From Escherichia coli (GTDB taxonomy: Bacteria > Pseudomonadota > Gammaproteobacteria > Enterobacterales > Enterobacteriaceae): DNA of 64,000 nucleotides. The notes below the pieces were generated by a model. It was not told the DNA's origin. It made no database searches and saw nothing but the letters and a program-made list of their open reading frames with translations. Positions 1 to 15,816 of the stretch are shown here, piece after piece. How positions within the stretch are numbered: the stretch's first letter is position 1; the number at the start of each line of letters is the position of its first letter. Location of the stretch: the NCBI RefSeq assembly GCF_003334305.1, contig NZ_QOWS01000017.1; one strand, 5' to 3'. Both the position numbers and the translations under genes were made by a program.

Positions 1-52
1 AGTTAATGCAACCGGCACGGAATGCAGTCATCTGTCACAGGGAGGAAAGCAA

Positions 53-373
53 ATGAAAACCCCCTTACCGCCCGTCTTACGCGCAGCCCTTTACCGTCGC
101 GCTGTCGCCTGTGCCTGGCTGACCGTGTGCGAACGTCAGCACCGCTACCCGCATCTCACCCTTGAATCACTGGAGGCGGCCATCGCCGCTGAGCTGGAAG
201 GCTTTTATCTGCGCCAGCACGGTGAGGAAAAAGGGCGTCAGATAGCCTGTGCCCTGCTGGAAGATTTAATGGAATCCGGCCCCCTGAAGGCCGCGCCGTC
301 GCTGTCCTTTCTCGGGCTGGTTGTGATGGATGAACTCTGTGCCCGTCACATAAAAGCGCCGGTACTGCACTGA
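53..373 (+). CDS. hypothetical protein, P4-like satellite early region (106 aa)
   Basis: ORF with GGAGG RBS a few nt upstream of ATG; co-directional with and 15 bp upstream of the alpha-type primase gene; no motif recognised. Confidence 0.5.
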
Positions 374-387
374 AGGAGAACAACACC

Positions 388-2721
388 ATGAAAATGAACG
401 TAACCGCCACCGTCAGCCATGCACTCGGCCACTGGCCGCGTATTCTCCCGGCGCTGGGGATTCAGGTGCTGAAAAACCGTCATCAGCCCTGTCCGGTCTG
501 TGGCGGGAGTGACCGCTTCCGTTTTGATGACAGGGAGGGGCGCGGCACCTGGTACTGCAATCAGTGTGGTGCCGGTGACGGCCTGAAACTGGTTGAAAAG
601 GTGTTTGGTGTTTCCCCGTCCGACGCGGCCGCAAAGGTGGCTGCCGTGACCGGCAGCCTGCCACCGGCTGACCCGGCAGTGACGGCCGCCGCCGTTGCTG
701 AAACAGACGCTGCCCGGAAGAACGCCGCCACACTGGCACAAACCCTGATGGCGAAAACCCGTACCGGAACCGGTAACGCCTACCTGACCCGCAAGGGCTT
801 TCCCGGCCGGGAATGCCGGATGCTGACCGGCACACACAGAGCCGGTGGCGTGAGCTGGCGCGCCGGTGACCTTGTGGTGCCACTGTATGACGACAGCGGC
901 GAACTGGTTAACCTTCAGTTAATCAGTGCTGACGGCCGTAAGCGCACCCTGAAAGGCGGACAGGTCAGGGGCACCTGTCACACCCTTGAAGGACAGAATC
1001 AGGCCGGAAAACGTCTGTGGATAGCGGAGGGATACGCGACCGCACTTACCGTACATCACCTGACCGGTGAAACGGTGATGGTGGCGCTTTCTTCCGTGAA
1101 CCTCCTTTCTCTGGCCAGCCTTGCCCGGCAGAAGCATCCGGCCTGTCAGATTGTCCTTGCCGCAGACCGTGACCTCAGCGGTGACGGCCAGAAAAAAGCC
1201 GCCGCAGCCGCAGATGCGTGTGAGGGCGTTGTTGCCCTGCCGCCGGTCTTCGGTGACTGGAATGATGCCTTCACGCAGTACGGCGGGGAGGCCACCCGTA
1301 AGGCCATTTACGATGCCATCCGGCCACCGGCTGAAAGCCCGTTCGACACCATGAGCGAAGCAGAGTTTTCCGCCATGAGTACCAGCGAAAAGGCCATGCG
1401 TATCTATGAGCATTACGGTGAGGCGCTCGCGGTCGATGCCAACGGCCAGCTTCTGTCTCGCTATGAAAATGGTGTCTGGAAGGTGCTGCCGCCACAGGAC
1501 TTTGCCCGGGATGTGGCCGGGCTGTTTCAGCGTCTGCGCGCGCCGTTCTCCTCCGGGAAGGTGGCCTCCGTGGTGGACACCCTGAAGCTGATTATTCCGC
1601 AGCAGGAAGCCCCCTCCCGCCGCCTGATTGGCTTTCGTAACGGTGTGCTCGACACACAGAACGGCACGTTCCACCCGCACAGTCCGTCACACTGGATGCG
1701 CACCCTGTGCGATGTGGATTTCACCCCGCCGGTGGACGGTGAAACGCTGGAGACCCACGCCCCCGCGTTCTGGCGCTGGCTTGACCGTGCCGCCGGTGGC
1801 CGTGCGGAAAAACGCGACGTGATTCTGGCCGCACTGTTTATGGTGCTGGCAAACCGCTATGACTGGCAGCTCTTTCTGGAGGTGACCGGTCCCGGCGGCA
1901 GCGGCAAAAGTATCATGGCCGAAATAGCCACCCTGCTGGCCGGGGAGGATAACGCCACGTCGGCCACCATTGAGACGCTGGAATCCCCGCGTGAACGTGC
2001 CGCGTTAACTGGCTTCTCACTGATACGCCTGCCGGACCAGGAAAAATGGAGCGGCGACGGTGCCGGACTCAAGGCCATCACCGGCGGCGATGCGGTGTCC
2101 GTTGACCCGAAATACCGGGATGCATACTCCACGCATATCCCGGCGGTGATTCTGGCCGTGAACAATAACCCGATGCGCTTCACCGACCGCAGCGGCGGCG
2201 TGTCACGCCGGCGGGTGATTATTCACTTCCCGGAACAGATAGCCCCGCAGGAGCGCGACCCGCAGCTTAAGGACAAAATCACCCGCGAGCTGGCGGTCAT
2301 CGTGCGTCACCTGATGCAGAAGTTCAGCGACCCGATGCTCGCCCGGTCACTGCTTCAGTCCCAGCAGAACTCAGACGAGGCGCTGAACATCAAACGGGAT
2401 GCCGACCCGACGTTTGATTTTATCGGCTATCTGGAAACCCTGCCGCAGACCAGCGGCATGTATATGGGGAACGCCAGTATCATCCCGCGTAATTACCGTA
2501 AATACCTCTATCACGCCTATCTGGCCTACATGGAGGCAAACGGCTACCGGAATGTACTCAGTCTGAAAATGTTCGGGCTGGGGCTGCCGGTGATGCTGAA
2601 GGAATACGGACTGAATTACGAGAAGCGCCATACCAAACAGGGGATACAGACCAACCTGACGCTGAAAGAGGAAAGCTACGGCGACTGGCTGCCAAAATGT
2701 GACGACCCTGCAACAACCTGA
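388..2721 (+). CDS. P4 alpha-type bifunctional primase/helicase
   Basis: 777-aa ORF with AAGGAG RBS; N-terminal zinc ribbon CPVCGG...YCNQCG; Walker A GPGGSGKS at about aa 500; architecture and length match satellite phage P4 alpha as I recall it. Confidence 0.9.
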   Translation: MKMNVTATVSHALGHWPRILPALGIQVLKNRHQPCPVCGGSDRFRFDDREGRGTWYCNQCGAGDGLKLVEKVFGVSPSDAAAKVAAVTGSLPPADPAVTAAAVAETDAARKNAATLAQTLMAKTRTGTGNAYLTRKGFPGRECRMLTGTHRAGGVSWRAGDLVVPLYDDSGELVNLQLISADGRKRTLKGGQVRGTCHTLEGQNQAGKRLWIAEGYATALTVHHLTGETVMVALSSVNLLSLASLARQKHPACQIVLAADRDLSGDGQKKAAAAADACEGVVALPPVFGDWNDAFTQYGGEATRKAIYDAIRPPAESPFDTMSEAEFSAMSTSEKAMRIYEHYGEALAVDANGQLLSRYENGVWKVLPPQDFARDVAGLFQRLRAPFSSGKVASVVDTLKLIIPQQEAPSRRLIGFRNGVLDTQNGTFHPHSPSHWMRTLCDVDFTPPVDGETLETHAPAFWRWLDRAAGGRAEKRDVILAALFMVLANRYDWQLFLEVTGPGGSGKSIMAEIATLLAGEDNATSATIETLESPRERAALTGFSLIRLPDQEKWSGDGAGLKAITGGDAVSVDPKYRDAYSTHIPAVILAVNNNPMRFTDRSGGVSRRRVIIHFPEQIAPQERDPQLKDKITRELAVIVRHLMQKFSDPMLARSLLQSQQNSDEALNIKRDADPTFDFIGYLETLPQTSGMYMGNASIIPRNYRKYLYHAYLAYMEANGYRNVLSLKMFGLGLPVMLKEYGLNYEKRHTKQGIQTNLTLKEESYGDWLPKCDDPATT

Positions 2722-2728
2722 CCCACCT

Positions 2729-2754
2729 GACCGGCATCTGCCGGTCTTTTTTTA
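2729..2754 (+). terminator. rho-independent terminator after primase gene
   Basis: GACCGGC-atct-GCCGGTC hairpin followed by T7 run, 8 bp after the stop codon. Confidence 0.65.
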
Positions 2755-2770
2755 TCCCTGAATTCCCCGA

Positions 2771-3070
2771 AGGTGAACAATCCACTGTTCACCCTTCACC
2801 GTATATTCACCCGTTATCACACTGAAATTAAAAGAGAAAAACGAAAGGTGAACAGTGTGAACAATCAAATCAAAAAAAACTTTTTTCTTCCTGAGTGATT
2901 TCAGCACGGGAAATTAATCCCCTGCACAAGTCACACCGGCAGAATGCCGGAGGTGAAGAATCGAATGTTCACCCTTCACCCATTATTCACCACCTATCCA
3001 ACTGAAATAAAAGGAGAAAACAGAAAGGTGAACAGTGTGAACAGTTCTTTCGAAAAAAAATTTTTTTCTT
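2771..3070. repeat. crr-like replication region: two ~120-bp direct repeats carrying TGTTCACC/GGTGAACA octamers
   Basis: Units at 2771-2890 and 2951-3070 (period 180 bp) align nearly base for base; each has at least three copies of the P4 type I iteron octamer in both orientations and ends in an A8/T8 tract. Confidence 0.75.
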
Positions 3071-3184
3071 ATTTTTAATTGTGCGAAAAACAAGCGACAC
3101 ACGCAGTGTGTATAGATATGTGTATAGTTATATTTTTTGAATATTATAATGTATTACAAATCAATGTGTTAGCTTGTAATATTC

Positions 3185-3203
3185 ACTCCTATTATCGGCA
3201 CCA
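3185..3203 (+). other. att core copy (tRNA-Thr 3'-end-like, ACTCCTATTATCGGCACCA)
   Basis: 19-nt string matching the T-arm-to-CCA end of thrW as I recall it; no full tRNA upstream; second copy at 15262-15279. Confidence 0.6.
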
Positions 3204-3808
3204 TCAAGAAAATCAATAACTTAGCTTAACTTCTCTAAGAAATTGTATCTTCTGTTATCACTTACAAACGCCTATACGTTGTTATGGGCTTTGGTAGTGT
3301 AACACGTATGGGCGAGTAGTTCCCAGGCTCAACCTCGTAACAAGTTCCTTTGAAGCTGGAAGACGTGCCACCGTCTCTAAACCTTCTACCAAAACTCTTA
3401 GCAAGATGTTCCACACCTGGCGCGGTGTCCAATGATGCTACACGTCGTGAGACGTTGCAGAGGATAAACAGGCTAAATGATGGGAAGAGTTTTAAGTGCA
3501 ATAGTGGATTAAAGCCCACCTCTTCAAAACCTAACTTGATCGGGAAAGAATCAAGCTCTAGCACGGTTTCGTCCACCGGAGTACAACGGGTGCCTGATAA
3601 GAGAAGAACTGCTAAGACTTCATAGCTTTTGTGAAAAAGCCCTTTTTAGTGGATACGCCTACGGCGCTTATTTTTTGGTATAACCATCAAAGGCGCTTTA
3701 TGGCTCCTATTGTCTTGAAAATGTATCTTTACTTGTATTGTGTTTTATGCGTAGTCTCCCTGTGTAGTATGTAACTTGTTAATTTTCATATGAATACAGA
3801 GGCACACG

Positions 3809-3967
3809 ATGAAAAACATTGCAGCTATCAAACGGAATAACCGCAAGATTCACGCTCGTAAGTTCCTGTCTACGCCAGAAGGAAAAGCCTGGCTAGAGCG
3901 TAAACAGAGAGAAAACGAAGAAAGAAAACTCCTTAGTGAGTTGAAATGGCTTAGAGAGGATTTCTGA
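3809..3967 (+). CDS. small basic protein (52 aa), hypothetical
   Basis: ATG with AGAGG-like RBS; Lys/Arg-rich; below the size cut-off of the ORF track; translated by hand. Confidence 0.3.
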   Translation: MKNIAAIKRNNRKIHARKFLSTPEGKAWLERKQRENEERKLLSELKWLREDF

Positions 3968-4260
3968 AAATCTCCAGAACGCAACAGGACGCATTCTAAC
4001 GCTGTTTTCATTACTCGGTATAGGGATTATAGGTGATGTGTGTTTAATGCGTCTGTGAGCTTGTTTTGTGCCTTATTTTGCATTTTCATAATGCAGGAGA
4101 GAACACGGAAAGCCTTAAAATTAATTATTGGGGTATTTAAGGCTATTTTTAGGTTATTTAAGGGTATTAAACTTGATTTAATTGATTGAAATATAAACAG
4201 ATAATTATGTATCTTATTGATTTATAAGGTTATTTTTAAATAAAGGTAAATAAAAAATAA

Positions 4261-4300
4261 ATAGCCATAAATAGCTATAAATACATCTAAATACCTATAT
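4261..4300. repeat. four tandem 10-bp A-rich units (ATAGCCATAA / ATAGCTATAA / ATACATCTAA / ATACCTATAT)
   Basis: Read directly; 10-bp period equals the helical repeat, suggesting bent DNA or a phased binding site. Confidence 0.6.
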
Positions 4301-4713
4301 CCCTTCCCTTATGGCTAGATTGCGAGAAGTGCTTAACGCGATTTTCAGCGCCCCCCGATCTGGAAAATCCAGAATCCCCAAATATCAGCAAGGAATTTTC
4401 TTGCGTAATCAACATCGTTTTTACCTATTAAATCATTACACAGAAAGCCTTTCTGTAATGTCTCTCACTAAACTTTCACTAAACACGAGAATGATCGGTT
4501 TTATGTCGGATCAGATGCTAGAAATAGCACCACGTCTCACAAGGGCTGTAAGCGATGAAACCAGTGTTTATGCGGGTGCAGGTCAAAATATAGGCCAAAA
4601 TACATTTAACATAATAAACGTAATATGCACTAAGGAACACATAGAACGCCTTGAGTTGATGTATCAGGGGAAAAGTGGTGGATTTTTTACGTAGGAGCAC
4701 GAGAGGGCTTCTA

Positions 4714-4741
4714 TTGACTTTTGTATGCTATGAAATATAAT
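4714..4741 (+). promoter_or_regulatory. candidate sigma70 promoter (TTGACT-16-TATAAT)
   Basis: Consensus-like hexamers with 16-bp spacer; no convincing ORF downstream, so it may drive a non-coding transcript through the repeat region. Confidence 0.35.
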
Positions 4742-5088
4742 AGAAGGTTTTTTTATGTTGATAGTGATTGCACATTAAAGATTGAAAGCAAATTTAAACA
4801 TAAATTTTCAACACGTGAAAGAGAACTTGTTCGACAAATGATAAAACGTTTATTGAGCAACAATTTTGCAGTGATGCGCTATATGCCGAATTACACAAGG
4901 CTTTGCGAAAGTGATGTAAAAGTGAAGAAAGTAAGAATTGCAACTTTAAGCTACTTTTCATTGAATTTTTTAGTATGGAATTACACAGGAATAAGTTAGG
5001 GATATTCTATGATTTACACAGGGAATATAGGGGGATTATGGCACACACATAGAAAGACATTACACAAAGTGCTATGTGACAAATGGAT

Positions 5089-5300
5089 GTAACGAGAGGT
5101 TACATTCAGCTATCTGAAATGCTCTCTGTAAGAAAGTTGGTAGTAACGATATGTTACATAGACTAATTATTGAATGTAACGATATTACACATCGGTAGTA
5201 ACGATACGTTACATCGACTAATTATTGAATGTAACGATATTACACATCGGTAGTAACGATACGTTACATCGACAGATGATTGGATGTAACGAAAGGTTAC
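5089..5300. repeat. array of seven 15-bp palindromic sites GTAACGA(t/a)A(t/c)GTTAC (iteron/operator/centromere-like)
   Basis: Sites start at 5089, 5143, 5176, 5198, 5231, 5253 and 5286; spacings 54/33/22/33/22/33 bp are all near multiples of 11 bp; includes a 56-bp unit repeated in tandem. Confidence 0.8.
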
Positions 5301-6398
5301 ACAATAAGACTATATTATTTATAATACTAAATAAAACTATATTAGATTATTAATTAGATCATAATAATATTCTTTATATCTATATATATGATCTTTTGCC
5401 TTCCGGCGTTAGCTTCACTCCCTGGCAAGCAGCCTTACTCCGCTACCTTTCGGGCTACGTTGGCTGGCCCGTTCCGCTCACACCGAAAGCAAAGCGTTAC
5501 TTTCTTCGTGTAACTATCGTGGCGGTAACGCCCACGAAGAAATACTATTGCGCTGTGCGCAGAAGAGTAATCACCTAACCAATCATAGATTGCTTATGTG
5601 TTAACTCTCTCTACCTCTTAATTCCACTTCCTACATTTAATAACTCTGTTATTCTCTGTAGTTGTGTAATTACTCGAAGAGAGAGCGGCTAAAGCTCAAT
5701 TACACTCTGCTTTCCTCGTGTAAGTTCACTAAGCCTCAATACAATTTCACTTCCTACATTCTGTAGTCGTGTAATTGTTTTCGGTGGAAAAGCCAGAGGC
5801 GACACCGAAAGAGAATTCTGATCTTATTAATCTTATCTATCTTAGTTAATCTTCTTACTTTATCTACTTTATTATTAATAATAGCTTTATAAGCTCTGTG
5901 TAGCTCTCTGACGCAAGAAACAGCATTCAGGAAGGGAATCACCTTAGAAAAGGTGTTCTTTGCGTCATAATGTGTTTTATGAAGGATTCAGAGGTGTTTC
6001 ATAACAGGAATGTATAGAGGATATTTTAATTAATTAAAAATAAGGGGTCTAAATGCTTCTCTAACAACATTAAGCAGGGTAGGGAATGGAAACGCATTGC
6101 CTACATATAATAAGCTCACTACAGGGCTTTACAGAGCGTTTTATAAAGTGACTCTCTGTTTTATATTTACCATTACCTTTTCATATACCTAACAAATACA
6201 AAATAAGCCCCTTCAATAAGCCTCTGGCGAGCGAAACAGCCATTAGATAAGGGAATGTATTGCTTTTATCAAAATCTCGTCAGAATGCGATTGAGAGTGT
6301 TTTAGCGGATAATGAAGAATAGCACTACATAGAAGAGCACGAATTGTTAAGCAAAATCATAACATACTGAAAAAGATCAGTTTTTTTGTGAAAAGGTA

Positions 6399-6427
6399 TT
6401 GACAAACGTCTCTTTCTGTGCAATAAT
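6399..6427 (+). promoter_or_regulatory. candidate sigma70 promoter (TTGACA-17-AATAAT) for the cargo operon
   Basis: Consensus -35 and near-consensus -10; about 125 nt upstream of the first RBS-preceded ORF, with a hairpin-rich leader. Confidence 0.5.
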
Positions 6428-6554
6428 AGGTATTAGAGGGGACAGGAATAGATTCTTATCCTCTAAATAATTAAACCAATGCACCGCACTTTGAAGCCCA
6501 AGAGGCTTGCAAGGTGTTTTTTCTTTTAACCAAATCGAATAAGGAGGCTAATTA

Positions 6555-6731
6555 ATGAAATATTTCACTCCACAGGATGTAGTAGAAGCCTGGAAACGTG
6601 GTGAGATCAACCGCTTTAAAGTAAGGATGTATAGAAACACCGCTCGCCGTTGTGGTTATCCAGAGCGTGAAAAATGTTTTGACGATGCACTGAAAATTAT
6701 TGATGAACTGCGTAAAGCTGAGAAAGAATAA
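6555..6731 (+). CDS. hypothetical small protein (58 aa)
   Basis: AAGGAGG RBS 6 nt upstream of ATG; first gene after the promoter; translated by hand. Confidence 0.5.
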   Translation: MKYFTPQDVVEAWKRGEINRFKVRMYRNTARRCGYPEREKCFDDALKIIDELRKAEKE

Positions 6732-6753
6732 TAGACAAGAGAAGGAGAAAACT

Positions 6754-6921
6754 ATGAGCGAAACTAAGAAACCAATTCCGCGCACTTACCTTCACGTTGA
6801 CCCTGAAATCTTCAAGGTTTTATTTGCTGAAGCCAAGAAAAGGCAAATTATGGTCAGTGATTTGATGTTAGAAATCATTACTGAAGCAGCAGAGAACATC
6901 AAACAAAAAAAGGGTAAGTGA
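6754..6921 (+). CDS. ribbon-helix-helix-like DNA-binding protein (55 aa)
   Basis: GAAGGAG RBS; N-terminal beta-strand-like segment (RTYLHV) followed by two short helices, an Arc/CopG-type pattern; inferred from sequence pattern only. Confidence 0.5.
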   Translation: MSETKKPIPRTYLHVDPEIFKVLFAEAKKRQIMVSDLMLEIITEAAENIKQKKGK

Positions 6922-6974
6922 TCCTCATTCACTTTAGTAGCGCATTAAGCGTGATTTATAAGGAGATGATTCTA

Positions 6975-7718
6975 ATGTCTAAAATTAAATTGATTCGTGA
7001 AAAATACCAGTATGTTGATAAACAAACAGGAGAAATTAAAGACCGAACTTTGAATATACCGCATTACTTTTGTGAGATTGAATTTATCTACTCCTCAAGT
7101 GTTGATGGTGGAAAAGTTAAGTTTAGTGCAGAAATGCAAAAATTATATTGCTATGTTTCAGATTGGGAGAAATCAGGGGGGATATGTTTTGAAACACAAA
7201 CGAAGTTAAGTAAAGTTTGTGGCTGTAGCCGTAAGACAGTTAATGAACTGATTGGTCTTATGATTAAAATCGGTCTTTTAGAAGAGGTCGGAGAACGAAT
7301 TCCAAAACGTCCTTTAAAATTACGTGCGCTACCTCTCACAGATGCACATATTACTCCCCCAGGAGAATCATCACTCTCTGATCTTTCTGAGGCAGAAGAA
7401 GCACAGGAACAACCTAAAGGCCATAAACAGCCTTCTTTTGATGTTCTTGATGATTGGGATGCGCCTTTACCGTGGGAGACGGAAGAAACACCTGTTTCAT
7501 CAAGTGAAAAGGTAGCTAATGATAATGAGGAGGATGTATTAGAGAATTTTGCCTCTCTTATCATCCAGGAGAAACACACAAGAACAGGAGGAGCATCATT
7601 TATTGAGTTTGCAAATTCACTAGCTTATAGATACGGGCTAAAACGACCAAATGGTATTGAGGCATATTTTTCTAAGAATTACCCAAATGTATATGATGAA
7701 TTTGATATTCCCTTTTAA
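6975..7718 (+). CDS. winged-helix DNA-binding protein with acidic linker (247 aa), possible replication initiator or regulator
   Basis: AAGGAG RBS; helix-turn-helix-like segment LSKVCGCSRKTVNELIGLMIKIGLLEE; Asp/Glu-rich middle; stop overlaps the next RBS. Confidence 0.55.
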   Translation: MSKIKLIREKYQYVDKQTGEIKDRTLNIPHYFCEIEFIYSSSVDGGKVKFSAEMQKLYCYVSDWEKSGGICFETQTKLSKVCGCSRKTVNELIGLMIKIGLLEEVGERIPKRPLKLRALPLTDAHITPPGESSLSDLSEAEEAQEQPKGHKQPSFDVLDDWDAPLPWETEETPVSSSEKVANDNEEDVLENFASLIIQEKHTRTGGASFIEFANSLAYRYGLKRPNGIEAYFSKNYPNVYDEFDIPF

Positions 7719-7748
7719 TAAGGAGGACTATGATTCAATATTTAGTAA

Positions 7749-8009
7749 AAAAATCAAGTAGACAGAATTCAGTGTAATGACACAGGAAAACGCATCTACG
7801 AAACACTTGCTTACCTCTATAAAGGAAAGCCAACACCGCTAAAATATAGCGATGTGTTACATCGAGCAGGGTGCTCTGAAGCTGGTTTAAAATTCTGGCT
7901 GAAACAGCTATCAAATTTCGGTGTTATTGAAATGAAAGAGCTGTCTTTTTCTACATTCAATCTCAAAAGATTAGATAAAGAAATAGAATTCATCTATTCC
8001 ACTCTCTAA
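7749..8009 (+). CDS. second winged-helix-like ORF lacking a canonical start (frameshift/slippage or pseudogene candidate)
   Basis: Open frame encoding ...YSDVLHRAGCSEAGLKFWLKQLSNFGVIEM...; an AGGAGG-ATG at 7730 opens a 15-codon ORF in another frame that crosses an A7 run (7747-7753) directly before this frame opens. Confidence 0.3.
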   Translation, partial: KNQVDRIQCNDTGKRIYETLAYLYKGKPTPLKYSDVLHRAGCSEAGLKFWLKQLSNFGVIEMKELSFSTFNLKRLDKEIEFIYSTL

Positions 8010-8141
8010 AATCTCTCTATGTAATTAAAATATAAAAGGAAAACATTATTATGATAGTAGCTATGTATTGGTTATTGTTCTTTCTCACGTTAGAAGCATA
8101 CTTTGGGGTGTTTTCCTTTAAAAGAAAAGGAAAAGTAAATA

Positions 8142-8558
8142 ATGGCAAAAAGAAAAAACAACGTTGTTAAGAAAATCGGTGATTCAGCTTCTCTTCTAAG
8201 TAAACCTAAACCTAAATCTATTCTAAGACGTAAAGACTTTAAAGAGCTAGTTACGCTCACCAAGCAAAATAGCGCCCCTGGCGAATGGAAAACAGAGATC
8301 ATAGAACATTCTCCCTCTGTGCCTTGTGGAGATGAATTTAACGCCTTGCAAGAAATCTTATCTTCAACACCTGGCGTATTCTGGAAACCTAGAAAAAGAA
8401 AAGAGTATATCGTTGATAGCTCTGATTTACGCAAATACCAGATTTTAGGATTTGAAGATTATAACCACTACGTCGGTTATCTCGCCACCAATGGCCTAAA
8501 TAATTTAGTTCCTGAATTCCAAATTTTAGATAATGCTGATCACTATGGAGACTTTTAA
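8142..8558 (+). CDS. hypothetical protein (138 aa), basic N-terminus
   Basis: ATG preceded by AAAGGAAAAG; no motif recognised. Confidence 0.5.
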   Translation: MAKRKNNVVKKIGDSASLLSKPKPKSILRRKDFKELVTLTKQNSAPGEWKTEIIEHSPSVPCGDEFNALQEILSSTPGVFWKPRKRKEYIVDSSDLRKYQILGFEDYNHYVGYLATNGLNNLVPEFQILDNADHYGDF

Positions 8559-8559
8559 T

Positions 8560-8898
8560 ATGAACAAAAACACGTATGACACAATTTATTCACTAATTAA
8601 TTATTATGAGGATGATTACCTCCTGCCTTTAAACCGCGCTGAACTTGAAGCATACAAAGAAAACACGCCAGGGGCGCTAAATGAGGCGTTTAAACACTGG
8701 GATTTAGCTGTGAATGCCTTTGAGCACCTTTCTAAAAGAGTAGAGATGCTCTGTAAGCGTGAAAACGCATACCTGACAGCCGATCAGATATGGGAGCTAT
8801 CAAACTGGATAGAAGATATTGAATCTGATGTTCGCTATGTAGGGGATGGCCTGGTTGAATTAGCTCAACGCTTAGGCGCTACTATCACAGAAGAATAA
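8560..8898 (+). CDS. hypothetical acidic protein (112 aa)
   Basis: ATG 8560 with GGAG 7 nt upstream, 1 nt after the previous stop; an in-frame upstream ATG at 8533 would overlap the previous gene. Confidence 0.5.
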   Translation: MNKNTYDTIYSLINYYEDDYLLPLNRAELEAYKENTPGALNEAFKHWDLAVNAFEHLSKRVEMLCKRENAYLTADQIWELSNWIEDIESDVRYVGDGLVELAQRLGATITEE

Positions 8899-8927
8899 AA
8901 AAAGCAACAAAAAAGTTGTAAAATATC

Positions 8928-8956
8928 TTGACATTCCATCTATTGTATGTTAATAT
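8928..8956 (+). promoter_or_regulatory. candidate sigma70 promoter (TTGACA-17-TAATAT)
   Basis: Consensus -35; located in a 350-bp gap inside the operon. Confidence 0.45.
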
Positions 8957-9093
8957 AATTATATAGGGGTGATTATTTTTCCTTTATTGGTTCGATATTA
9001 AAAATTCTTCCTGTCATTAAAGGGGAGTAAAATCTCCGCTCCCCGCTTCTCCTCCTTAAGTAAATACTGTGTCATTATACCTCTTTTTTCCTT

Positions 9094-9125
9094 TGTTATG
9101 CATACATCTTGGAGTATGCATAACA
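9094..9125. promoter_or_regulatory. 12-bp perfect inverted repeat TGTTATGCATAC-N8-GTATGCATAACA (operator or RNA hairpin)
   Basis: Read directly; lies between the 8928 promoter and the next gene. Confidence 0.6.
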
Positions 9126-9165
9126 TAGGGTAATTACATAGGTATGAGTTAATAAAAGGCGGCTC

Positions 9166-9189
9166 TAAATGCTGCCTTTTATTTTGCCC
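9166..9189 (+). terminator. weak intrinsic terminator or attenuator
   Basis: AGGCGGC-tctaaat-GCTGCCT stem with one G-U pair, followed by TTTTATTTT. Confidence 0.4.
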
Positions 9190-9247
9190 GTTATGCAACT
9201 TAAAAGTTGTATTTCTTACTTTAAAAAAGGTAACAAGGTTTATATAA

Positions 9248-9460
9248 ATGTTGTTTTTAAACGATAAAGAGCAAATCATCAAGTATAAAGATGAAATGCT
9301 GAAAATTAATCCACAAATTACCGAAATGGTAGCTAAATACGCTGGGTGTTCTGTCGAGGAAGTAGAAAGATGTGTTGAAAAATATTTTTCTCCTTCTACT
9401 CCGTCTACACCTTCCCTTAATGAATTAATCAAATTAAAAGCTAAGGAGATTACTAAATGA
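9248..9460 (+). CDS. hypothetical protein (70 aa)
   Basis: ATG with AAGG upstream; stop overlaps the start of the next gene (ATGA). Confidence 0.5.
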   Translation: MLFLNDKEQIIKYKDEMLKINPQITEMVAKYAGCSVEEVERCVEKYFSPSTPSTPSLNELIKLKAKEITK

Positions 9461-9819
9461 TTATTGATTTAGACACTCTGTTTCCAGTTAGAAAGACTTT
9501 CACAGATATTGTAAGTTATTGTACTGATCCGTTTGCCTCTGTAGAAAGCAAGGTTTTTGCTTCTCTTCCTGCTGATGTTGAGTGCGGCGACTTGATCACC
9601 AGTACTGGCGCTAAATATGAATCAGGAGATGATATCTATGTTGTTATGAGTGAATTTGTAACGGCTGGAGAAAACAAGCCTGTAGATGTGCTACGTAGTA
9701 ATGCTGGTCTTGTCTGCATCAAAGCTGATGCGCTGAATGCTGTAAGTGAAGCAGCAAAAACAGCATTAATTAAAAAAGGCTTCCAGCTTGAAGGGTTCCA
9801 TTCTGTTTTCACTTCTTAA
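9457..9819 (+). CDS. hypothetical protein (120 aa)
   Basis: AAGGAG RBS; translationally coupled to the upstream ORF. Confidence 0.55.
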   Translation: MIIDLDTLFPVRKTFTDIVSYCTDPFASVESKVFASLPADVECGDLITSTGAKYESGDDIYVVMSEFVTAGENKPVDVLRSNAGLVCIKADALNAVSEAAKTALIKKGFQLEGFHSVFTS

Positions 9820-9837
9820 TAAAAGGAATAATAATAA

Positions 9838-10869
9838 ATGATTCTAGGTAATGATTACGTTGATTTAGCTCCGCTTTTCCAGGCACACAGCACTAGAAAC
9901 TTTCTGCTCTCTACCCTCGACTTCACTGATCCGGTGGGCGTTAGTTCTCATAAAGTAGCTGTTTCTCAGCTTGTCGAAAGCAACGAATCTCTGTTCAACA
10001 AAGAAACCTCTCGTTTCTCTTCTGAACACAATGTTACTAAGCGTGAACAAGGTAAAGAATGGCTGATTGAAATCCCGTATTTTCTTCGTGAAGATGTGAT
10101 CCGTCCTTCTGATGTTCAAGGCAAGCGTAAGCCTGGCACTGATTTTCAGGAAACACTCACTGATATCTATGCGGAATATATCGCTAAACACCACGTAGCG
10201 TATCAGCGTACAAAAGAGAGCGTGTTGGCTGCATCTCTGTTTAGCGGTAAAACTTACACGCCTAAAACTGATGATGTTCTTATCGAGTGGGGCAAGCTGT
10301 TTAACGTGGCACCTATGAAAGCCACCTTGAACGCTTCCAGCACTGACACAATGACCGTTTTCAAGCAATTTGACCAGCTTGCTACGGATATGATTGCTAA
10401 GGCACAAAACCAGGCTGCAACCATTGAGCGTGTTGTTGTGTTCTGTAAACCTGCGGCATTCAACGCTATTCGTTACAGTGTTGGTATGGTCAATGCTTTC
10501 CAATATGCAAGCCCTGTAGACGATGCCAACGTGGTGTTTAATGTGCGTTCCCTGCTACCAGGTGTAACTACTTTCACCATTCCAGGAACTAACATTGACC
10601 TGATCAAAGTGACTGATCCGCTACACCTTGCACATATGGCTTCTGATGCGGTTGCTGTGCCTAAATTCGCTAAGGGGGCAGGTGTTTACCAATCTATCTA
10701 TGGGGCAGCTTCCAGCACCTTTGAACTGATCAATGCCGCTCCTGCTGAGGTGTATAGCTATAGCTATGAATCTTCTTCTCGTGGTGATGCTGTTAACGTT
10801 GTTACAGAGAATAGCCAGATGGTGGTAAACCACGGCGTTGGTTTCTCCGTTCAAATCACTGTTAAATAA
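9838..10869 (+). CDS. hypothetical protein (343 aa), no motif recognised
   Basis: Long ORF in AT-rich DNA with AAGGA RBS; followed by a strong terminator. Confidence 0.65.
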   Translation: MILGNDYVDLAPLFQAHSTRNFLLSTLDFTDPVGVSSHKVAVSQLVESNESLFNKETSRFSSEHNVTKREQGKEWLIEIPYFLREDVIRPSDVQGKRKPGTDFQETLTDIYAEYIAKHHVAYQRTKESVLAASLFSGKTYTPKTDDVLIEWGKLFNVAPMKATLNASSTDTMTVFKQFDQLATDMIAKAQNQAATIERVVVFCKPAAFNAIRYSVGMVNAFQYASPVDDANVVFNVRSLLPGVTTFTIPGTNIDLIKVTDPLHLAHMASDAVAVPKFAKGAGVYQSIYGAASSTFELINAAPAEVYSYSYESSSRGDAVNVVTENSQMVVNHGVGFSVQITVK

Positions 10870-10887
10870 TATTTTAACGTGTAATAG

Positions 10888-10925
10888 AGGCGTGGCGTGA
10901 ATAACACGCTTCGCCTTTTTTTATT
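10888..10925 (+). terminator. rho-independent terminator
   Basis: Nested hairpin AGGCG-tg-GCGTG-aataa-CACGC-tt-CGCCT followed by a T-rich run. Confidence 0.65.
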
Positions 10926-10955
10926 TATTTTTAAATTTTGAGAGGTGATTAAAAT

Positions 10956-11159
10956 ATGGAAGTGATTCTGAAATCAAAAAATGGTGTACACGTTTATTTA
11001 GATGCTAATGATTCAAGAGGCTTGTTAAATCTGAAATATCTATGTTCTCTCTTGGATGTTCCATATGAAGGCGTAAAAGCCCGAATGTTCAGATTAAACG
11101 AGAGTATTGATCAAGCTCTACACCATTTCTTAAGCAAAGAAGGTGGTAAAAATGATTAA
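10956..11159 (+). CDS. hypothetical protein (67 aa)
   Basis: GAGAGGTGA RBS; 15 bp upstream of the 612-aa gene. Confidence 0.45.
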   Translation: MEVILKSKNGVHVYLDANDSRGLLNLKYLCSLLDVPYEGVKARMFRLNESIDQALHHFLSKEGGKND

Positions 11160-11173
11160 TAAGGGGATTTTAA

Positions 11174-13012
11174 ATGTTAGAAATTAACACTTCTAAAATT
11201 AAGAACACAGTAACATTTAGTGTAGATAAAGACAGCTTGAAAAAAGCGAAAGACTCTATTACAGGCTTAAAGGAATTCACAGAAAACATCAAGCCAGCTA
11301 AATTAAGGTTTGATAGTGTCACTAAAGGCTATAAGAAAGCACAAAGCGAAGTAGACAAGATTGCTCAACAGAAAGCTAAAACAGAAAAGCAGAATCAAAG
11401 AGCACAAGCTGCCGCAGCAAGAGCACAGGCAAGGCAACAGACACAAATAGCAGCACGTAAAGAGAAAGCAGAATTAAAGCTCCTCGATGTGTCAAGCTCT
11501 ATCAGTGCAATGCACCGCCTCTCTGTAGCGGAACAATACAAAGCTATTGCACAGGCTAGAGAGATAGCAAAACAATATGAGCAAGGGGCTATCTCGCTTG
11601 CACGTATGAATAGTCAGATGAAACGCCTACAACAGCAACAACGTAAGATTAATGGCAACAGAAAAGCTCAATTAGCCCCCGTTAAGGGAGGAGGATCAGG
11701 GAATTCCGCCACGATGGGTGCTCTGTTATTTGGAGGCGCTACAGCGGCTGCTGGCGTGATGGCTGTTAGTAAAGCGTCGGAGTTTGTTAGTAACAGTTTC
11801 GCTAACGCAGAGACACAAGGTGAGCTAATTCAACGTGCAAGGCTTGGCGGTGTAGACGTTAACCAGATGTACAACATTACAGAATGGGCCTATAGAAACG
11901 GCGTTGACTCTATGATGGGTGATCAAGGGGCTAGGAAATACCTGGATCAGATGAAAGATGTTAGGGAACGTGCCGCAAAATCCTATAGTGAAGCTGAATA
12001 TGTAGTCGATAAAAAAACTGGTAAAGGCGGCGAATGGAAAGGCGGTGATAACGCTATTAATGAACTTCTAAACATCGGTGTTATTAACAAGAGCGACCTT
12101 AAAAAATTTGCTGATAATCCAGCCGGATTAATTTCTAAGGCTGTTAATGGAATGATGAAAAAAGGGTTTTCAGACTCCCAAATTGGACAACGTTTAGAAG
12201 ACCTGGGTGATGATTTGATGCTTACATCAAAATATTGGCAACGTTCCGTTAAAGATGTACAAACAAGCATCGAGCAGCAAAAAGCCTCTGGAAAATGGCT
12301 AACAGAAACACAGCAAGATTCTATTGTTAAATTCAGAGAACTAAACAGACAGCTTTCACAGCTTTCTGATGCAAGACAAGTAGCATTTGTAGACGGCTTT
12401 ATGAAATCTCTCGATCCAAAAGTAACGGAAGAGTTTATGAAAAACCTTTCTAATCTCACTCCGTATTTTACAAAGCTGGGAGAAGCTACAGGAAGTCTCT
12501 TTGAAGCTATTATGAAGATTGTAAACTGGTTTAATCGTAATGATGATAAGACAGATGCTATTCAGAAAAATTTAGGTGATGCACCGCCATTAAGCAATGA
12601 AGGAATGAAACAGAATCTTTCTAATCTCGTTCCTGATCAATATAAAGGCGCTGGCACCGGAACAACTAAGCCAGATAACAGCAATTCCCTGTTTAACACT
12701 ATTAAGGGATTGCTTTTCGATGATAAGTCTTCTTCTGTGTCAGATGTAAAAATGTCAGTCAGCGAAGCACCGATAACCAATCTCAAACAGGGCGCTTTAA
12801 ATAATCTTGCAATGACAACTCCGGCTTATAATTTATCTCCTGTGTTTAATCTGAATCCTACATTTGAAGTGGTAACAGAGGTTCCTCTTACTATTAATTC
12901 TGACACATCAAGATTAAGCGATTATGTGGATTTTACAGCGAGATCAAGTCGGGATAGCTTCTTGAAATCATTAACATTAACCAGCTTATCAGGACAATCT
13001 AACGGCGGGTAA
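11174..13012 (+). CDS. large coiled-coil protein with central Gly-rich hydrophobic segment (612 aa); tape-measure-like or membrane-interacting, function unknown
   Basis: AAGGGG RBS; N-terminal approx. 150 aa rich in Q/A/R/K/E; segment GGGSGNSATMGALLFGGATAAAGVMAV; no NTP-binding or catalytic motif seen. Confidence 0.7.
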   Translation: MLEINTSKIKNTVTFSVDKDSLKKAKDSITGLKEFTENIKPAKLRFDSVTKGYKKAQSEVDKIAQQKAKTEKQNQRAQAAAARAQARQQTQIAARKEKAELKLLDVSSSISAMHRLSVAEQYKAIAQAREIAKQYEQGAISLARMNSQMKRLQQQQRKINGNRKAQLAPVKGGGSGNSATMGALLFGGATAAAGVMAVSKASEFVSNSFANAETQGELIQRARLGGVDVNQMYNITEWAYRNGVDSMMGDQGARKYLDQMKDVRERAAKSYSEAEYVVDKKTGKGGEWKGGDNAINELLNIGVINKSDLKKFADNPAGLISKAVNGMMKKGFSDSQIGQRLEDLGDDLMLTSKYWQRSVKDVQTSIEQQKASGKWLTETQQDSIVKFRELNRQLSQLSDARQVAFVDGFMKSLDPKVTEEFMKNLSNLTPYFTKLGEATGSLFEAIMKIVNWFNRNDDKTDAIQKNLGDAPPLSNEGMKQNLSNLVPDQYKGAGTGTTKPDNSNSLFNTIKGLLFDDKSSSVSDVKMSVSEAPITNLKQGALNNLAMTTPAYNLSPVFNLNPTFEVVTEVPLTINSDTSRLSDYVDFTARSSRDSFLKSLTLTSLSGQSNGG

Positions 13013-13046
13013 TTCCCGCCATAACATTACAAGGAAAATTATTATT

Positions 13047-13760
13047 ATGGCGACCGCCGGGATTTTAACCATACGTGCAGCAAATACTCCAGAACAACAC
13101 GTTCAGGCTGTTTACAAAGCAGAACAAGATATAAATTCTACAAAAAACGAAAATAGCAAAGCTAATAAAACAAAAGGAGAGAACGGATTTGCTATTGTTA
13201 CCAGTGGCTTGGCATCTTCTGGCAATGACGTTTATGAAAATTATATGGCCCTGGCCTTTGACAGTGTAGACGATGTGAACGTGAGACGTTCGGCAGATGT
13301 CACAAGCTACCCCGTAGAAAATGGTGCTACTGTGTCTGATCACGTTCAAATTAAAAACAATAAGTTTTCTCTTAAAGGAAGGATCACTGAAACACCGATT
13401 AAAAGCGATCCTGGCTTGTTAAAGAGTGCAGGGGTGAACGGGAACAGAAGATCATTAGCCATAGACTACTTGAATCAGATTATGGACAGTAGACAGCCTT
13501 TTCTTCTTGTTACAGAAAATAAAACTTTTGAGAACGTTGTTTTAACAGGCATCGAATACACAGAAGAGGCAAGCGAATCCCTGGTATTTGATCTTAGCTT
13601 TGAGCAGATCAGATTAGTTTCTTATGGCACTGTATCCACTATTGCACTTAAAACACAACCATCTAAGAACATCGGGGCGAATATGAAAAAACGTGTTAAC
13701 ACTGAAAAATCAAGTAGTGAAGGTGAAGACACTATTACTCCTGCCTTTAAGCAGAAATAG
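13047..13760 (+). CDS. hypothetical protein (237 aa)
   Basis: AAGGA RBS; last gene of the + strand operon, convergent with the integrase. Confidence 0.6.
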   Translation: MATAGILTIRAANTPEQHVQAVYKAEQDINSTKNENSKANKTKGENGFAIVTSGLASSGNDVYENYMALAFDSVDDVNVRRSADVTSYPVENGATVSDHVQIKNNKFSLKGRITETPIKSDPGLLKSAGVNGNRRSLAIDYLNQIMDSRQPFLLVTENKTFENVVLTGIEYTEEASESLVFDLSFEQIRLVSYGTVSTIALKTQPSKNIGANMKKRVNTEKSSSEGEDTITPAFKQK

Positions 13761-13803
13761 CCGTAAACGCCTCTAAAACGCTCTGTAACGATGTAATTAT
13801 AAA

Positions 13804-13840
13804 AGAGGCTGCCAATCTATGTTGAAGCCTCTTTATTGTG
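13804..13840. terminator. bidirectional terminator between convergent operon and integrase
   Basis: AGAGGCT-N15-AGCCTCT hairpin flanked by T-rich runs on both strands. Confidence 0.5.
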
Positions 13841-13841
13841 T

Positions 13842-15176: not shown

Positions 15177-15218
15177 AGAAAATGATAATTTTTCTATAAG
15201 ATTCAATCAATTAGTAAT

Positions 15219-15279
15219 GGTCGTAGGTGATGGCATTAACACGAGATTAATCGAGTGTTTTACTCCTATTATCGCACCA
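15219..15279 (+). pseudogene. tRNA-Thr 3'-half remnant (ptwF-like) containing the right att core copy
   Basis: GGTCGTAGGT, then a 33-nt unrelated insert, then ACTCCTATTATCG-CACCA; not a foldable tRNA. Confidence 0.55.
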
Positions 15280-15405
15280 TTAAAATCAAAGAGTTACCCC
15301 ATATTTAAATACACCACGTTTCCTCCTGTGCCGCATTTGTGCCATTGTAACCTTGGCAATTCATCAAAATACTGTTCTGACATCAGGCAGTGCAGGTGCA
15401 GCTAT

Positions 15406-15816
15406 TTAAACCAATTGCTGCCGCCATTCTTTGACGTAGTCAATCAGGGCGCGGAGCTTTGGTGCAATATTGCGACGCTGTGGGAAATACAGATAGAAGC
15501 CCGGAAATTGTGGAAGAAAGTCATCAAGCAGCGATACAAGCTTACCGCTTTCAATATATGGCCTGAAAGTTTCCTGAGTGGCAATTGTTATTCCTCCGCC
15601 GGCAAGAGCCAGCCTCAACATCAGACGCAGATCATTAGTCGTAATCTGCGGTTCAATCGCAAGGTCGAAAGTTCTCCCGTTTTCTTCAAATGGCCAGCGA
15701 TAAGGCGCAACCTCCGGGGACTGACGCCAGCCGATACACTTATGGGTATTTCCCCCGGAGGCGAGAAAGCGCTCTCCACGCCCGGCCGCAAGGATCAGGA
15801 CGACGGGGGCAGGCAT
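15406..15816 (-). pseudogene. yagP: LysR-family regulator fragment (C-terminal substrate-binding domain only)
   Basis: 136-aa reading frame from MPAPVV... matching the yagP remnant as I recall it; no N-terminal HTH domain present; overlaps the paoD 3' end. Confidence 0.6.

What the first reader, a model, noticed from the sequence alone, without database searches (positions are those of the whole stretch)
2771..3070. P4-type crr-like replication region immediately downstream of the alpha primase/helicase gene
Two ~120-bp direct repeats 180 bp apart, each with multiple TGTTCACC/GGTGAACA octamers, follow the alpha gene and its terminator. This matches what I recall of the P4 cis replication region bound by alpha, and shows the window opens inside a P4-like satellite whose int, ori and late genes must lie upstream or be missing.
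Basis: partly seen in the sequence, partly recalled or inferred. Interest (0 to 1): 0.4.

Follow-up and report, generated by a model that had tools for sequence, protein, structure and literature searches.

The report
P4 satellite phage replication region (crr)
The two 120-bp repeats are the long-known "cis replication region" (crr) of satellite phage P4, sitting at the right end of an intact P4-type prophage in an E. coli chromosome, so the finding is correct but ordinary.

Summary
Window 2767-2886 and 2947-3066 are two 120-nt direct repeats (97/120 identical, 180 nt start to start). They lie 46 nt after the stop of a 777-aa primase-helicase gene and just after its terminator. The 300-nt block matches the annotated crr of phage P4 (X51522, X05623). 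Repeat 1 is 120/120 identical, repeat 2 is 117/120, and the 60-nt spacer is 49/60. All ten 8-mers that P4's record annotates as "ori type 1 repeat" are present at the same offsets with the same variants. The adjacent alpha protein is 772/776 identical to P4 alpha, and its origin-binding domain is 100% identical to PDB 1KA8.

The window is E. coli strain A7. Upstream of it lie thrW, int, GajA/GajB, cos, psu, delta, sid, an ori with six exact iterons, eps and cnr. The prophage ends at a 21-bp attR core at window 3185-3205.

The same crr occurs in 1127 of 5426 complete E. coli genomes, and single-unit or double-unit versions follow alpha genes in other Enterobacterales.

Verdict: already known, low interest. 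The only new points are minor. The int/att module is thrW-type and swapped exactly at the crr edge, and the number of crr units varies between genera.

The parts
53..373 (+). ORF106 homologue. This is P4 cnr, the copy-number regulator (the name is from my knowledge of P4). RefSeq annotates it as a DUF5375 protein.
   Evidence: It occupies the same position as P4 ORF106 in X51522. It matches phrog_5991 at E = 2e-55 over 106/106 residues and lies within the 97% identical block.
388..2721 (+). alpha gene: a 777-aa primase, SF3 helicase and origin-binding protein.
   Evidence: It is 772/776 identical to P4 alpha. Residues 671-770 are 100% identical to PDB 1KA8, the P4 origin-binding domain. It matches phrog_2249 'DNA primase' at E = 1e-241.
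2729..2756 (+). Rho-independent terminator of alpha (GACCGGCATCTGCCGGTC followed by T7).
   Evidence: The terminator scan finds 7 pairs, 6 of them G-C, then TTTTTTTATC. It aligns without mismatch to P4's annotated 't-alpha'. The hairpin is conserved in 14 of 14 aligned loci from several genera.
2767..2886 (.). crr direct repeat 1 (120 nt).
   Evidence: Reported by the repeat finder. It is 120/120 identical to P4 crr repeat 1.
2887..2946 (.). 60-nt spacer between the crr repeats. It contains the small hairpin CCGGCAGAATGCCGG at 2936-2950, which runs 4 nt into repeat 2.
   Evidence: It has 11/60 mismatches to P4 against 3/240 in the repeats, Fisher p = 2e-6. The hairpin is read directly from the sequence.
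2947..3066 (.). crr direct repeat 2 (120 nt).
   Evidence: Reported by the repeat finder. It is 117/120 identical to P4 crr repeat 2, and the differences at 2999-3001 lie outside the iterons.
2772..2779 (-). Type I iteron, GGTGAACA (exact).
   Evidence: Found. It corresponds to the P4 'ori type 1 repeat' at L001 4573-4580.
2786..2793 (+). Type I iteron, TGTTCACC (exact). It forms an inverted pair with 2772-2779.
   Evidence: Found. It corresponds to P4 L001 4587-4594.
2804..2811 (+). Type I iteron variant, TATTCACC (1 mismatch).
   Evidence: Found. It corresponds to P4 L001 4605-4612.
2847..2854 (-). Type I iteron, GGTGAACA (exact).
   Evidence: Found. It corresponds to P4 L001 4648-4655.
2856..2863 (-). 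Type I iteron variant, TGTGAACA (1 mismatch), in tandem with 2847-2854.
   Evidence: Found. It corresponds to P4 L001 4657-4664.
2952..2959 (-). Type I iteron variant, GGTGAAGA (1 mismatch).
   Evidence: Found. It corresponds to P4 L001 4753-4760.
2966..2973 (+). Type I iteron, TGTTCACC (exact).
   Evidence: Found. It corresponds to P4 L001 4767-4774.
2984..2991 (+). Type I iteron variant, TATTCACC (1 mismatch).
   Evidence: Found. It corresponds to P4 L001 4785-4792.
3027..3034 (-). Type I iteron, GGTGAACA (exact).
   Evidence: Found. It corresponds to P4 L001 4828-4835.
3036..3043 (-). Type I iteron variant, TGTGAACA (1 mismatch).
   Evidence: Found. It corresponds to P4 L001 4837-4844.
2872..2886 (.). 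A8-C-T6 tract that closes repeat 1. Its counterpart at 3052-3066 closes repeat 2.
   Evidence: Read directly from the sequence. The A-run is invariant at 2874-2879 across 14 loci from several genera, although it lies outside the iterons. Its role (bending or easy melting) is inferred only.
3107..3130 (+). Tandem 12-mers TGTGTATAGATA/TGTGTATAGTTA. These are candidate arm-type integrase-binding sites of the satellite's attP, on the P arm.
   Evidence: Found by TRF and the repeat finder. The 9-mer TGTGTATAG recurs on the int side at L003 6646 (+), at 6689 (-) overlapping the int ATG, and at 6747 (-, 1 mismatch). The tandem pair ends 54 nt before the core, against 53 nt in P4 (and P4 annotation).
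3185..3205 (+). attR core ACTCCTATTATCGGCACCATC. It duplicates the 3' end of tRNA-Thr (thrW) and marks the right end of the prophage.
   Evidence: The 21-nt exact duplicate of L003 6514-6534, which is the 3' end of the annotated tRNA-Thr, is shown. It is the only copy in the window. In strain DETEC-S565 the sequence to the right of it directly follows the intact tRNA-Thr.

Best explanation
Window 2767-3066 is the crr (cis replication region) of a P4-type satellite prophage. It is a cluster of ten binding sites (type I iterons, consensus TGTTCACC) for the satellite's own alpha protein, arranged as two 120-bp units 60 bp apart.

The proposed mechanism has four steps.
1. When the prophage is derepressed and excised by its integrase at the thrW att sites, alpha is made.
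2. Alpha's C-terminal winged-helix domain binds the iterons both at ori (six exact copies 4.7 kb away, between sid and the HTH gene) and at crr.
3. Alpha multimers bridge the two clusters, looping the DNA.
4. This lets alpha's helicase open ori and its primase start theta-type replication using the host polymerase.

crr is therefore a cis-acting, positively required partner of ori and not an origin itself. In the integrated, repressed state it is silent.

Shown here: the sequence identity of crr, ori, alpha and the element's layout to P4. Taken from knowledge of P4, not tested here: alpha binding, looping, and the cis requirement.
For: (1) Identity to P4's annotated crr. [quoted passage not shown] The repeats are 237/240 identical.

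(2) All ten annotated 'ori type 1 repeats' are present at identical offsets from the alpha stop codon, with identical variant spellings (one search compared).

(3) The cognate protein is present. Alpha is 772/776 identical to P4 alpha. Its residues 671-770 are 100% identical to the crystallised P4 origin-binding domain 1KA8.

(4) The partner ori is present on the same element, with six exact iterons at L003 13127-13230 in the P4 arrangement. It lies 4,711 bp from crr, against 4,720 bp in P4.

(5) The element is complete. It has int, cos, psu, delta, sid, epsilon, cnr, alpha and 21-bp att cores 11,845 bp apart.

(6) There is evidence of selection. The repeats are more conserved than the spacer (3/240 against 11/60 mismatches, p = 2e-6). 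Across 14 loci from E. coli, Enterobacter, Citrobacter, Cedecea, Intestinirhabdus, Mangrovibacter and Tenebrionibacter, the three iterons not used for ascertainment are invariant at 15/24 columns against 24/79 for other columns (p = 0.007). Iteron positions after the alpha stop are kept.

(7) Literature held in the library supports the function. crr is called the 'cis required region for replication' and described as essential for replication (bioRxiv 10.64898/2026.03.30.715334). Alpha is said to bind with a winged-helix domain at the origin repeats, followed by unwinding and priming (PMC4234260).
Against: Nothing in the sequence argues against it. There are three limits.

(1) Function is transferred from P4 by near-identity. 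No binding or replication assay exists for this strain.

(2) The primary papers on crr (Flensburg & Calendar 1987; Ziegelin et al. 1993) were not held in the library. The looping model and the statement that crr is not itself the origin therefore rest on my own knowledge and on the GenBank feature notes.

(3) Single-unit crr versions in other genera show that the two-repeat form is not obligatory. The role of the duplication as such is unexplained.
Confidence: 0.93

Rival explanations
1. The repeats are a dead relic: a crr inherited in a cryptic, non-replicating P4 remnant and kept only by recent descent.
For: Many P4-like elements in E. coli are degraded. For example, L007 has a truncated alpha gene, a psu pseudogene and a decaying second repeat. 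At 97% identity to P4, the conservation in this one element could be due to recency alone.
Against: Every P4 core gene in the A7 element is an intact ORF of P4 length, apart from a short delta. cos, ori, both att cores and the alpha ORF are intact. Across more divergent relatives the iterons stay fixed while the sequence between them drifts. That pattern indicates selection on the sites, not mere recency.
Confidence: 0.05
2. The iteron cluster acts mainly as a negative copy-number or incompatibility element. It would titrate or 'handcuff' alpha, like the extra iteron clusters of iteron plasmids (for example P1 incA), and would not be a positive replication element.
For: It is an iteron cluster outside the origin, next to the initiator gene and the copy-number regulator cnr. 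P4 can live as a plasmid, where such control would matter (own knowledge).
Against: The P4 records define the region genetically as required in cis for replication. Engineered P4 phasmids keep it as essential for replication. A purely negative element would not be required. A dual role, both bridging and copy control through Cnr-alpha, is not excluded.
Confidence: 0.02

Closest known systems
crr of satellite phage P4 (GenBank X05623 features 2733-3032; X51522 features 4291-4590)
   Same: The architecture is the same: 120 + 60 + 120 nt. The position is the same: 46 nt after the alpha stop and directly after t-alpha. The ten type I iterons have the same order, orientation and variant spelling. 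Repeats are 237/240 identical. The cognate alpha DNA-binding domain is identical, and the ori partner lies at the same distance.
   Different: There are 11 substitutions in the 60-nt spacer and 3 in repeat 2, all outside the iterons. Homology to P4 ends exactly at the last base of repeat 2 (3066). In P4, 116 nt separate crr from the leuX-type att arm repeats. Here 40 nt of unrelated sequence lead to thrW-type arm repeats.
P4-like satellite prophages of Enterobacterales (Moura de Sousa & Rocha 2022, PMC8628076; Rousset et al. 2022, PMC9122126)
   Same: The core gene set and order are int - hotspot - psu - delta - sid - alpA-like - epsilon - alpha. The integrase module is exchangeable, and a defence-system hotspot lies between int and psu.
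   Different: Those surveys define elements by proteins and delimit them by int and alpha. They do not treat crr, ori or att. This element shows that the non-coding crr and attR lie beyond alpha. crr-like DNA occurs in 1127 of 5426 complete E. coli genomes with no RefSeq feature under it.
Single-unit crr of P4-like elements in other genera (Cedecea L048, Citrobacter L050 and L122, Intestinirhabdus L071, Mangrovibacter L081, Tenebrionibacter L131, E. coli L008)
   Same: The offset after the alpha terminator is the same. The iteron layout is the same: an inverted pair, one or two direct copies, then a tandem pair about 75 nt on, closed by an A-run/T-run.
   Different: These have only one unit of about 120 nt. 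The iterons are mostly one-mismatch variants (AGTGAACA, TGTTCACT). Alpha is 80-85% identical.

Membership tests
P4 crr (cis replication region) | Two 120-bp direct repeats separated by about 60 bp | tested here: met
   The repeats are 2767-2886 and 2947-3066, with spacing 180. P4's annotation shows the same geometry.
P4 crr (cis replication region) | Repeats carry the type I octamer (TGTTCACC) that also occurs at ori | tested here: met
   There are 5 exact and 5 one-mismatch copies in crr and 6 exact copies at the ori position, L003 13127-13230.
P4 crr (cis replication region) | Located just downstream of the alpha gene and its terminator, between alpha and attP | tested here: met
   The alpha stop is at 2721, the terminator at 2729-2756, crr at 2767-3066, the arm repeats at 3107-3130 and the att core at 3185-3205.
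P4 crr (cis replication region) | Sequence homology to P4 crr | tested here: met
   There is 94.5-94.8% identity over 367 nt, E = 2e-162. The repeats are 237/240 identical.
P4 crr (cis replication region) | A cognate alpha protein with the iteron-binding winged-helix domain is encoded in cis | tested here: met
   Alpha is 772/776 identical to P4 alpha. Residues 671-770 are identical to 1KA8.
P4 crr (cis replication region) | Bound by alpha protein | not testable with these tools
   This is inferred from the identity of both the protein domain and the DNA sites to P4. A gel-shift or footprint assay is needed.
P4 crr (cis replication region) | Required in cis for replication from ori (the genetic definition) | not testable with these tools
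   This is stated for P4 in the GenBank feature notes and. A deletion and replication assay of the A7 element is needed.
P4-like satellite prophage | Core set int, psu, delta, sid, alpA-like HTH, epsilon and alpha in P4 order (criteria of PMC8628076) | tested here: met
   The RefSeq annotation of A7 at L003 6697-17895 shows them. There is 96.5-97% nucleotide identity to P4 over P4 4291-10436 and 10903-11624. The criteria were read.
P4-like satellite prophage | cos site and flanking att duplication (a mobilisable unit of P4 size) | tested here: met
   The cos cohesive end is 18/19 identical to P4. The 21-bp cores are 11,845 bp apart, against P4's 11,624 bp.
Phage P4 itself (same int/att and accessory genes) | leuX-specific integrase and attP, plus gop/beta/cII | tested here: not met
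   There is no homology to P4 1-4290. Integration is at tRNA-Thr with a different core and different arm repeats. GajA/GajB occupy the hotspot.

The most novel reading that the evidence does not exclude
The about 120-nt crr unit, not the P4 double repeat, is the ancestral and sufficient alpha-loading module, because single units follow intact alpha genes in several genera. The two-unit form of the E. coli P4 lineage would then be a later duplication that tunes alpha occupancy or plasmid-state copy number. The right edge of crr would be a fixed junction at which int/att modules are swapped, since four different sequences start exactly after repeat 2 in different strains.
Probability: 0.35. Interest if true: 0.2.

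Novelty: already known. Interest (0 to 1): 0.1.

Why it matters
It matters little as a discovery, since crr has been a textbook feature of P4 since 1987. It has three practical uses.

First, it fixes the true right boundary of this prophage. The sequence crr - arm sites - attR core at 3185-3205 lies beyond the last gene, whereas protein-based satellite finders stop at alpha.

Second, it shows the element is very probably replication-competent and mobilisable, so the Gabija system it carries is mobile too.

Third, neither crr (present in about a fifth of complete E. coli genomes) nor the ori of this element carries any RefSeq feature. A simple DNA model of crr and ori would improve satellite annotation.

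Tried and rejected
(1) Primary literature. Ziegelin et al. 1993 (PMC413647) and the Lindqvist/Dehò/Calendar review (PMC372931) are not held. The mechanism therefore rests on GenBank feature notes, two secondary papers and my own knowledge. PMC9942202 mentions crr only in passing, and its other 'crr' hits were 'crRNA'.

(2) Scan of genome contigs with the 16-mer GTGAACAGTGTGAACA. 97 of these have no alpha homologue and are chance matches in unrelated phyla, and only 23 are real. The conservation statistics were corrected for this ascertainment by leaving out the pattern columns.

(3) RNA reading. Rfam at gathering thresholds finds nothing in window 1-16000. The small ORFs across the repeats (2773-2898, 2944-3078, 2752-2907) were dismissed because the region is P4's non-coding crr, and divergence between relatives follows the iterons and ignores any reading frame.

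(4) Arm-type integrase sites as an explanation of the octamers. This was rejected because the integrase arm motif is a different sequence (TGTGTATAG) located at 3107-3130.

(5) A third thrW core at the far end of the neighbouring island. None was found, even with 3 mismatches.

Full report

Yes. The repeat finder on window 2300-3600 returns, as its top family, two 120-nt direct repeats at 2767-2886 and 2947-3066. They are 81% identical with a start-to-start spacing of 180. 97 matches in 120 has a binomial tail near 1e-34.

The octamer TGTTCACC, on either strand, occurs exactly five times inside the 300-nt block. It occurs only three more times in the remaining 63.7 kb. About 1.7 are expected for the whole window, and no shuffle out of 100 reaches 8. 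With one mismatch allowed there are ten sites, five per repeat.

The block begins 46 nt after the stop codon of a 777-aa ORF (388-2721) that matches the PHROG 'DNA primase' family at E = 1e-241. It comes directly after a G+C-rich hairpin with a T-run at 2729-2756.

**2. What is it?**

A blastn search of window 2700-3120 against 50,697 phage records hits only phage P4. The match is 94.5-94.8% identical over query 1-367, E = 2e-162. [quoted passage not shown]

- Repeat 1 is 120/120 identical to P4 repeat 1.
- Repeat 2 is 117/120 identical to P4 repeat 2.
- The 60-nt spacer has 11 substitutions.
- The contrast between repeats and spacer is significant (Fisher p = 2e-6).
- All ten iterons sit at the same distance from the alpha stop as in P4, with the same spellings, including the one-mismatch variants TATTCACC, TGTGAACA and GGTGAAGA.

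The neighbouring protein is 772/776 identical to P4 alpha. Its residues 671-770 are identical to the crystallised P4 origin-binding domain, PDB 1KA8. The small ORF before it (53-373) is P4 ORF106, which I know as cnr.

**3. Context**

The first 8 kb of the window are 100% identical to the chromosome of E. coli strain A7, from orangutan faeces, NZ_CP028767.1.

The record upstream of the window reads as follows: proA, tRNA-Thr, tyrosine integrase, ATP-dependent nuclease, UvrD-type helicase, psu, an ogr/delta-like gene, sid (annotated 'glycoprotein 3'), an HTH regulator, an icd-like gene, the derepression protein (epsilon), an ORF151 homologue, DUF5375 (ORF106) and alpha.

Comparison of this stretch with the whole P4 genome gives these results.

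- There is one 6.15-kb block at 97.0% identity, from P4 4291 (the end of crr) to 10436 (inside delta). A second block covers psu to the right cos end at 96.5%.
- Six exact type I iterons lie at L003 13127-13230, between sid and the HTH gene. They match P4's ori arrangement and lie 4,711 bp from crr, against 4,720 bp in P4.
- The cos junction is present with one mismatch in the 19-nt cohesive end.
- P4 positions 1-4290 (gop, beta, cII, int, attP) have no counterpart.
- In their place are a different integrase and a Gabija pair: GajA at E = 1e-253 and GajB at E = 3e-229. This is the known defence hotspot of P4-like satellites (PMC9122126; PMC8628076).

**4. The end of the element**

P4 homology stops at window 3066, the last base of repeat 2.

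A 21-nt sequence, ACTCCTATTATCGGCACCATC, forms the 3' end of the tRNA-Thr gene at the integrase side (L003 6514-6534). It is repeated exactly at window 3185-3205, and that is its only occurrence in the window. In strain DETEC-S565 the DNA to the right of 3205 follows the intact tRNA-Thr directly. So 3185-3205 is attR, and the satellite measures 11,845 bp between cores, against P4's 11,624 bp.

Between crr and attR lie two tandem 12-mers, TGTGTATAGATA/TGTGTATAGTTA, at 3107-3130. Their 9-nt core recurs on the integrase side: once direct, once inverted across the int start codon, and once inverted inside int with one mismatch. The tandem pair ends 54 nt before the core. This mirrors the annotated 'attP arm sequence repeats' of P4 (53 nt) with a different sequence.

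The satellite is therefore P4's replication, immunity and hijacking core joined to a thrW-type int/att module, with the joint exactly at the crr edge. Other strains show other joints at the same point. L010 shares this window's arm, L011 shares P4's, and L006 and L009 have yet others.

**5. How it most likely works**

Both the sites and the protein domain that reads them are essentially identical to P4, so I transfer the P4 mechanism.

1. After derepression and excision, alpha binds the type I iterons at ori and at crr through its C-terminal winged-helix domain.
2. Alpha multimers bridge the two clusters.
3. The helicase opens ori and the primase domain starts bidirectional theta replication.
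4. Cnr, encoded just upstream, modulates alpha.

The library supports two of these points. crr is the 'cis required region for replication' and is described as essential for replication. Alpha binds origin repeats through a winged-helix domain, followed by unwinding and priming. The looping step, and the statement that initiation is at ori and not at crr, come from my own knowledge of Ziegelin et al. 1993 and Krevolin et al. 1985. I could not open either paper.

**6. Comparative evidence for constraint**

The 300-nt crr finds matches in 1127 of 5426 complete E. coli genomes. 1067 of these carry at least 80% of it. All matches are chromosomal, and most have no annotated feature under the match.

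In diverged E. coli copies the iterons and the closing A-run/T-run persist while the sequence between them changes. Examples are L006, at 74% identity, and L008, which has a single unit.

A scan of one genome per species with a 16-mer from the tandem iteron pair gave mostly chance hits. It also gave 23 loci with an alpha homologue. These come from Enterobacter, Citrobacter, Cedecea, Intestinirhabdus, Mangrovibacter, Tenebrionibacter, Pantoea and Pectobacterium.

Where alpha is 80-85% identical, a crr unit follows the terminator at the same offset with the same iteron layout. It occurs either once (Cedecea, Citrobacter, Intestinirhabdus, Mangrovibacter, Tenebrionibacter) or twice, at spacings of 151-180 nt (Enterobacter, and an Enterobacteriaceae MAG).

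In a 14-sequence alignment, the three iterons that were not part of the search pattern are invariant at 15/24 columns, against 24/79 for the remaining columns (p = 0.007). The A-run at 2874-2879 is also invariant.

**7. Rivals**

A 'dead relic' reading is unlikely. The element is complete and the sites are conserved beyond recent descent. A purely negative, titrating role conflicts with the genetic definition of crr, although a contribution to copy control is not excluded. RNA and coding readings were rejected. The integrase arm sites are a separate motif.

**8. Novelty and verdict**

The feature is already known. It is P4's crr, nearly base for base, in a P4-type prophage. The mildly new points are the thrW-type att/int module joined exactly at the crr edge, the one-unit against two-unit variation among genera, and the absence of any annotation for crr or ori in RefSeq. 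Interest is 0.1.

Noticed in passing
window 3206 to about 15300: A second, AT-rich (33-47% GC) island of about 12 kb lies directly after the satellite's attR, so two elements sit in tandem at thrW. It encodes a Rep/O-like protein (6918-7718), a major head protein (9838-10869), a tape-measure-like protein (11174-13012), a tail-fibre or endolysin-like protein (13047-13760) and a tyrosine integrase at the far end (13842-15206, minus strand). In other strains it sits directly at tRNA-Thr. No third copy of the thrW core was found.
   Followed up: partly
window 3206-6555, especially 5084-5301: About 3.3 kb has no ORF above 127 aa and only one small annotated gene. It contains seven copies of a 21-nt partly palindromic motif (TGGATGTAACGAnAnGTTACA), including a 55-nt tandem repeat of 2.8 copies at 5139-5292. 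This is a candidate iteron origin for the second island. There are no Rfam hits. Strain SC467 has a 'recombinase family protein' in the matching stretch.
   Followed up: partly
L003 7868-11190 (strain A7, upstream of the window): The satellite carries a complete Gabija system between int and cos/psu, replacing P4's gop/beta/cII. GajA scores E = 1e-253 and GajB scores E = 3e-229.
   Followed up: yes
window 3107-3130 and L003 6646, 6689, 6747: The motif TGTGTATAG is arranged like P4's attP arm repeats: a tandem pair 54 nt from the core, and one inverted copy across the int start codon. The sequence differs from P4's, which suggests a thrW-specific integrase with P4-type attP architecture. A second repeated motif, GTCCGTATTnGTCCnTAACC, occurs twice in the int-side arm at about L003 6551-6570 and 6603-6622.
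   Followed up: partly
window 3066/3067: The breakpoint of homology to P4 falls exactly at the last base of crr repeat 2. Different E. coli strains carry at least four unrelated sequences from that point on. Several single-unit crr loci in Citrobacter, Intestinirhabdus and Tenebrionibacter are followed by the same ATGTGTATAG arm motif as here.
   Followed up: partly
L003 11981-12226 (strain A7, upstream of the window): The delta gene is a short 81-aa ogr/Delta-like ORF, whereas P4 delta has 166 aa. Homology to P4 is interrupted between P4 10436 and 10903.
   Followed up: no
window 2936-2950: The spacer ends in a small hairpin, CCGGCAGAATGCCGG, whose stem matches that of the alpha terminator (CCGGCATCTGCCGG at 2732-2745). 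This hints that the duplication which made the two repeats once included the terminator.
   Followed up: no
L032, L132, L049, L073, L108, L123 (other genera): In Citrobacter sp. R56 and Tenebrionibacter the double iteron pattern lies about 0.8-1 kb beyond the alpha stop, not directly after it. In Pectobacterium and Enterobacter cancerogenus loci the 16-mer lies about 0.7-2.2 kb from the alpha gene, upstream of it in the three Pectobacterium loci, possibly at their ori.
   Followed up: no
window 15406-15744: The right flank of the second island is a truncated LysR-family gene next to paoD. In K-12, as I recall, the prophage CP4-6 occupies this thrW-paoABCD interval, so this is a heavily re-used integration hotspot.
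   Followed up: no
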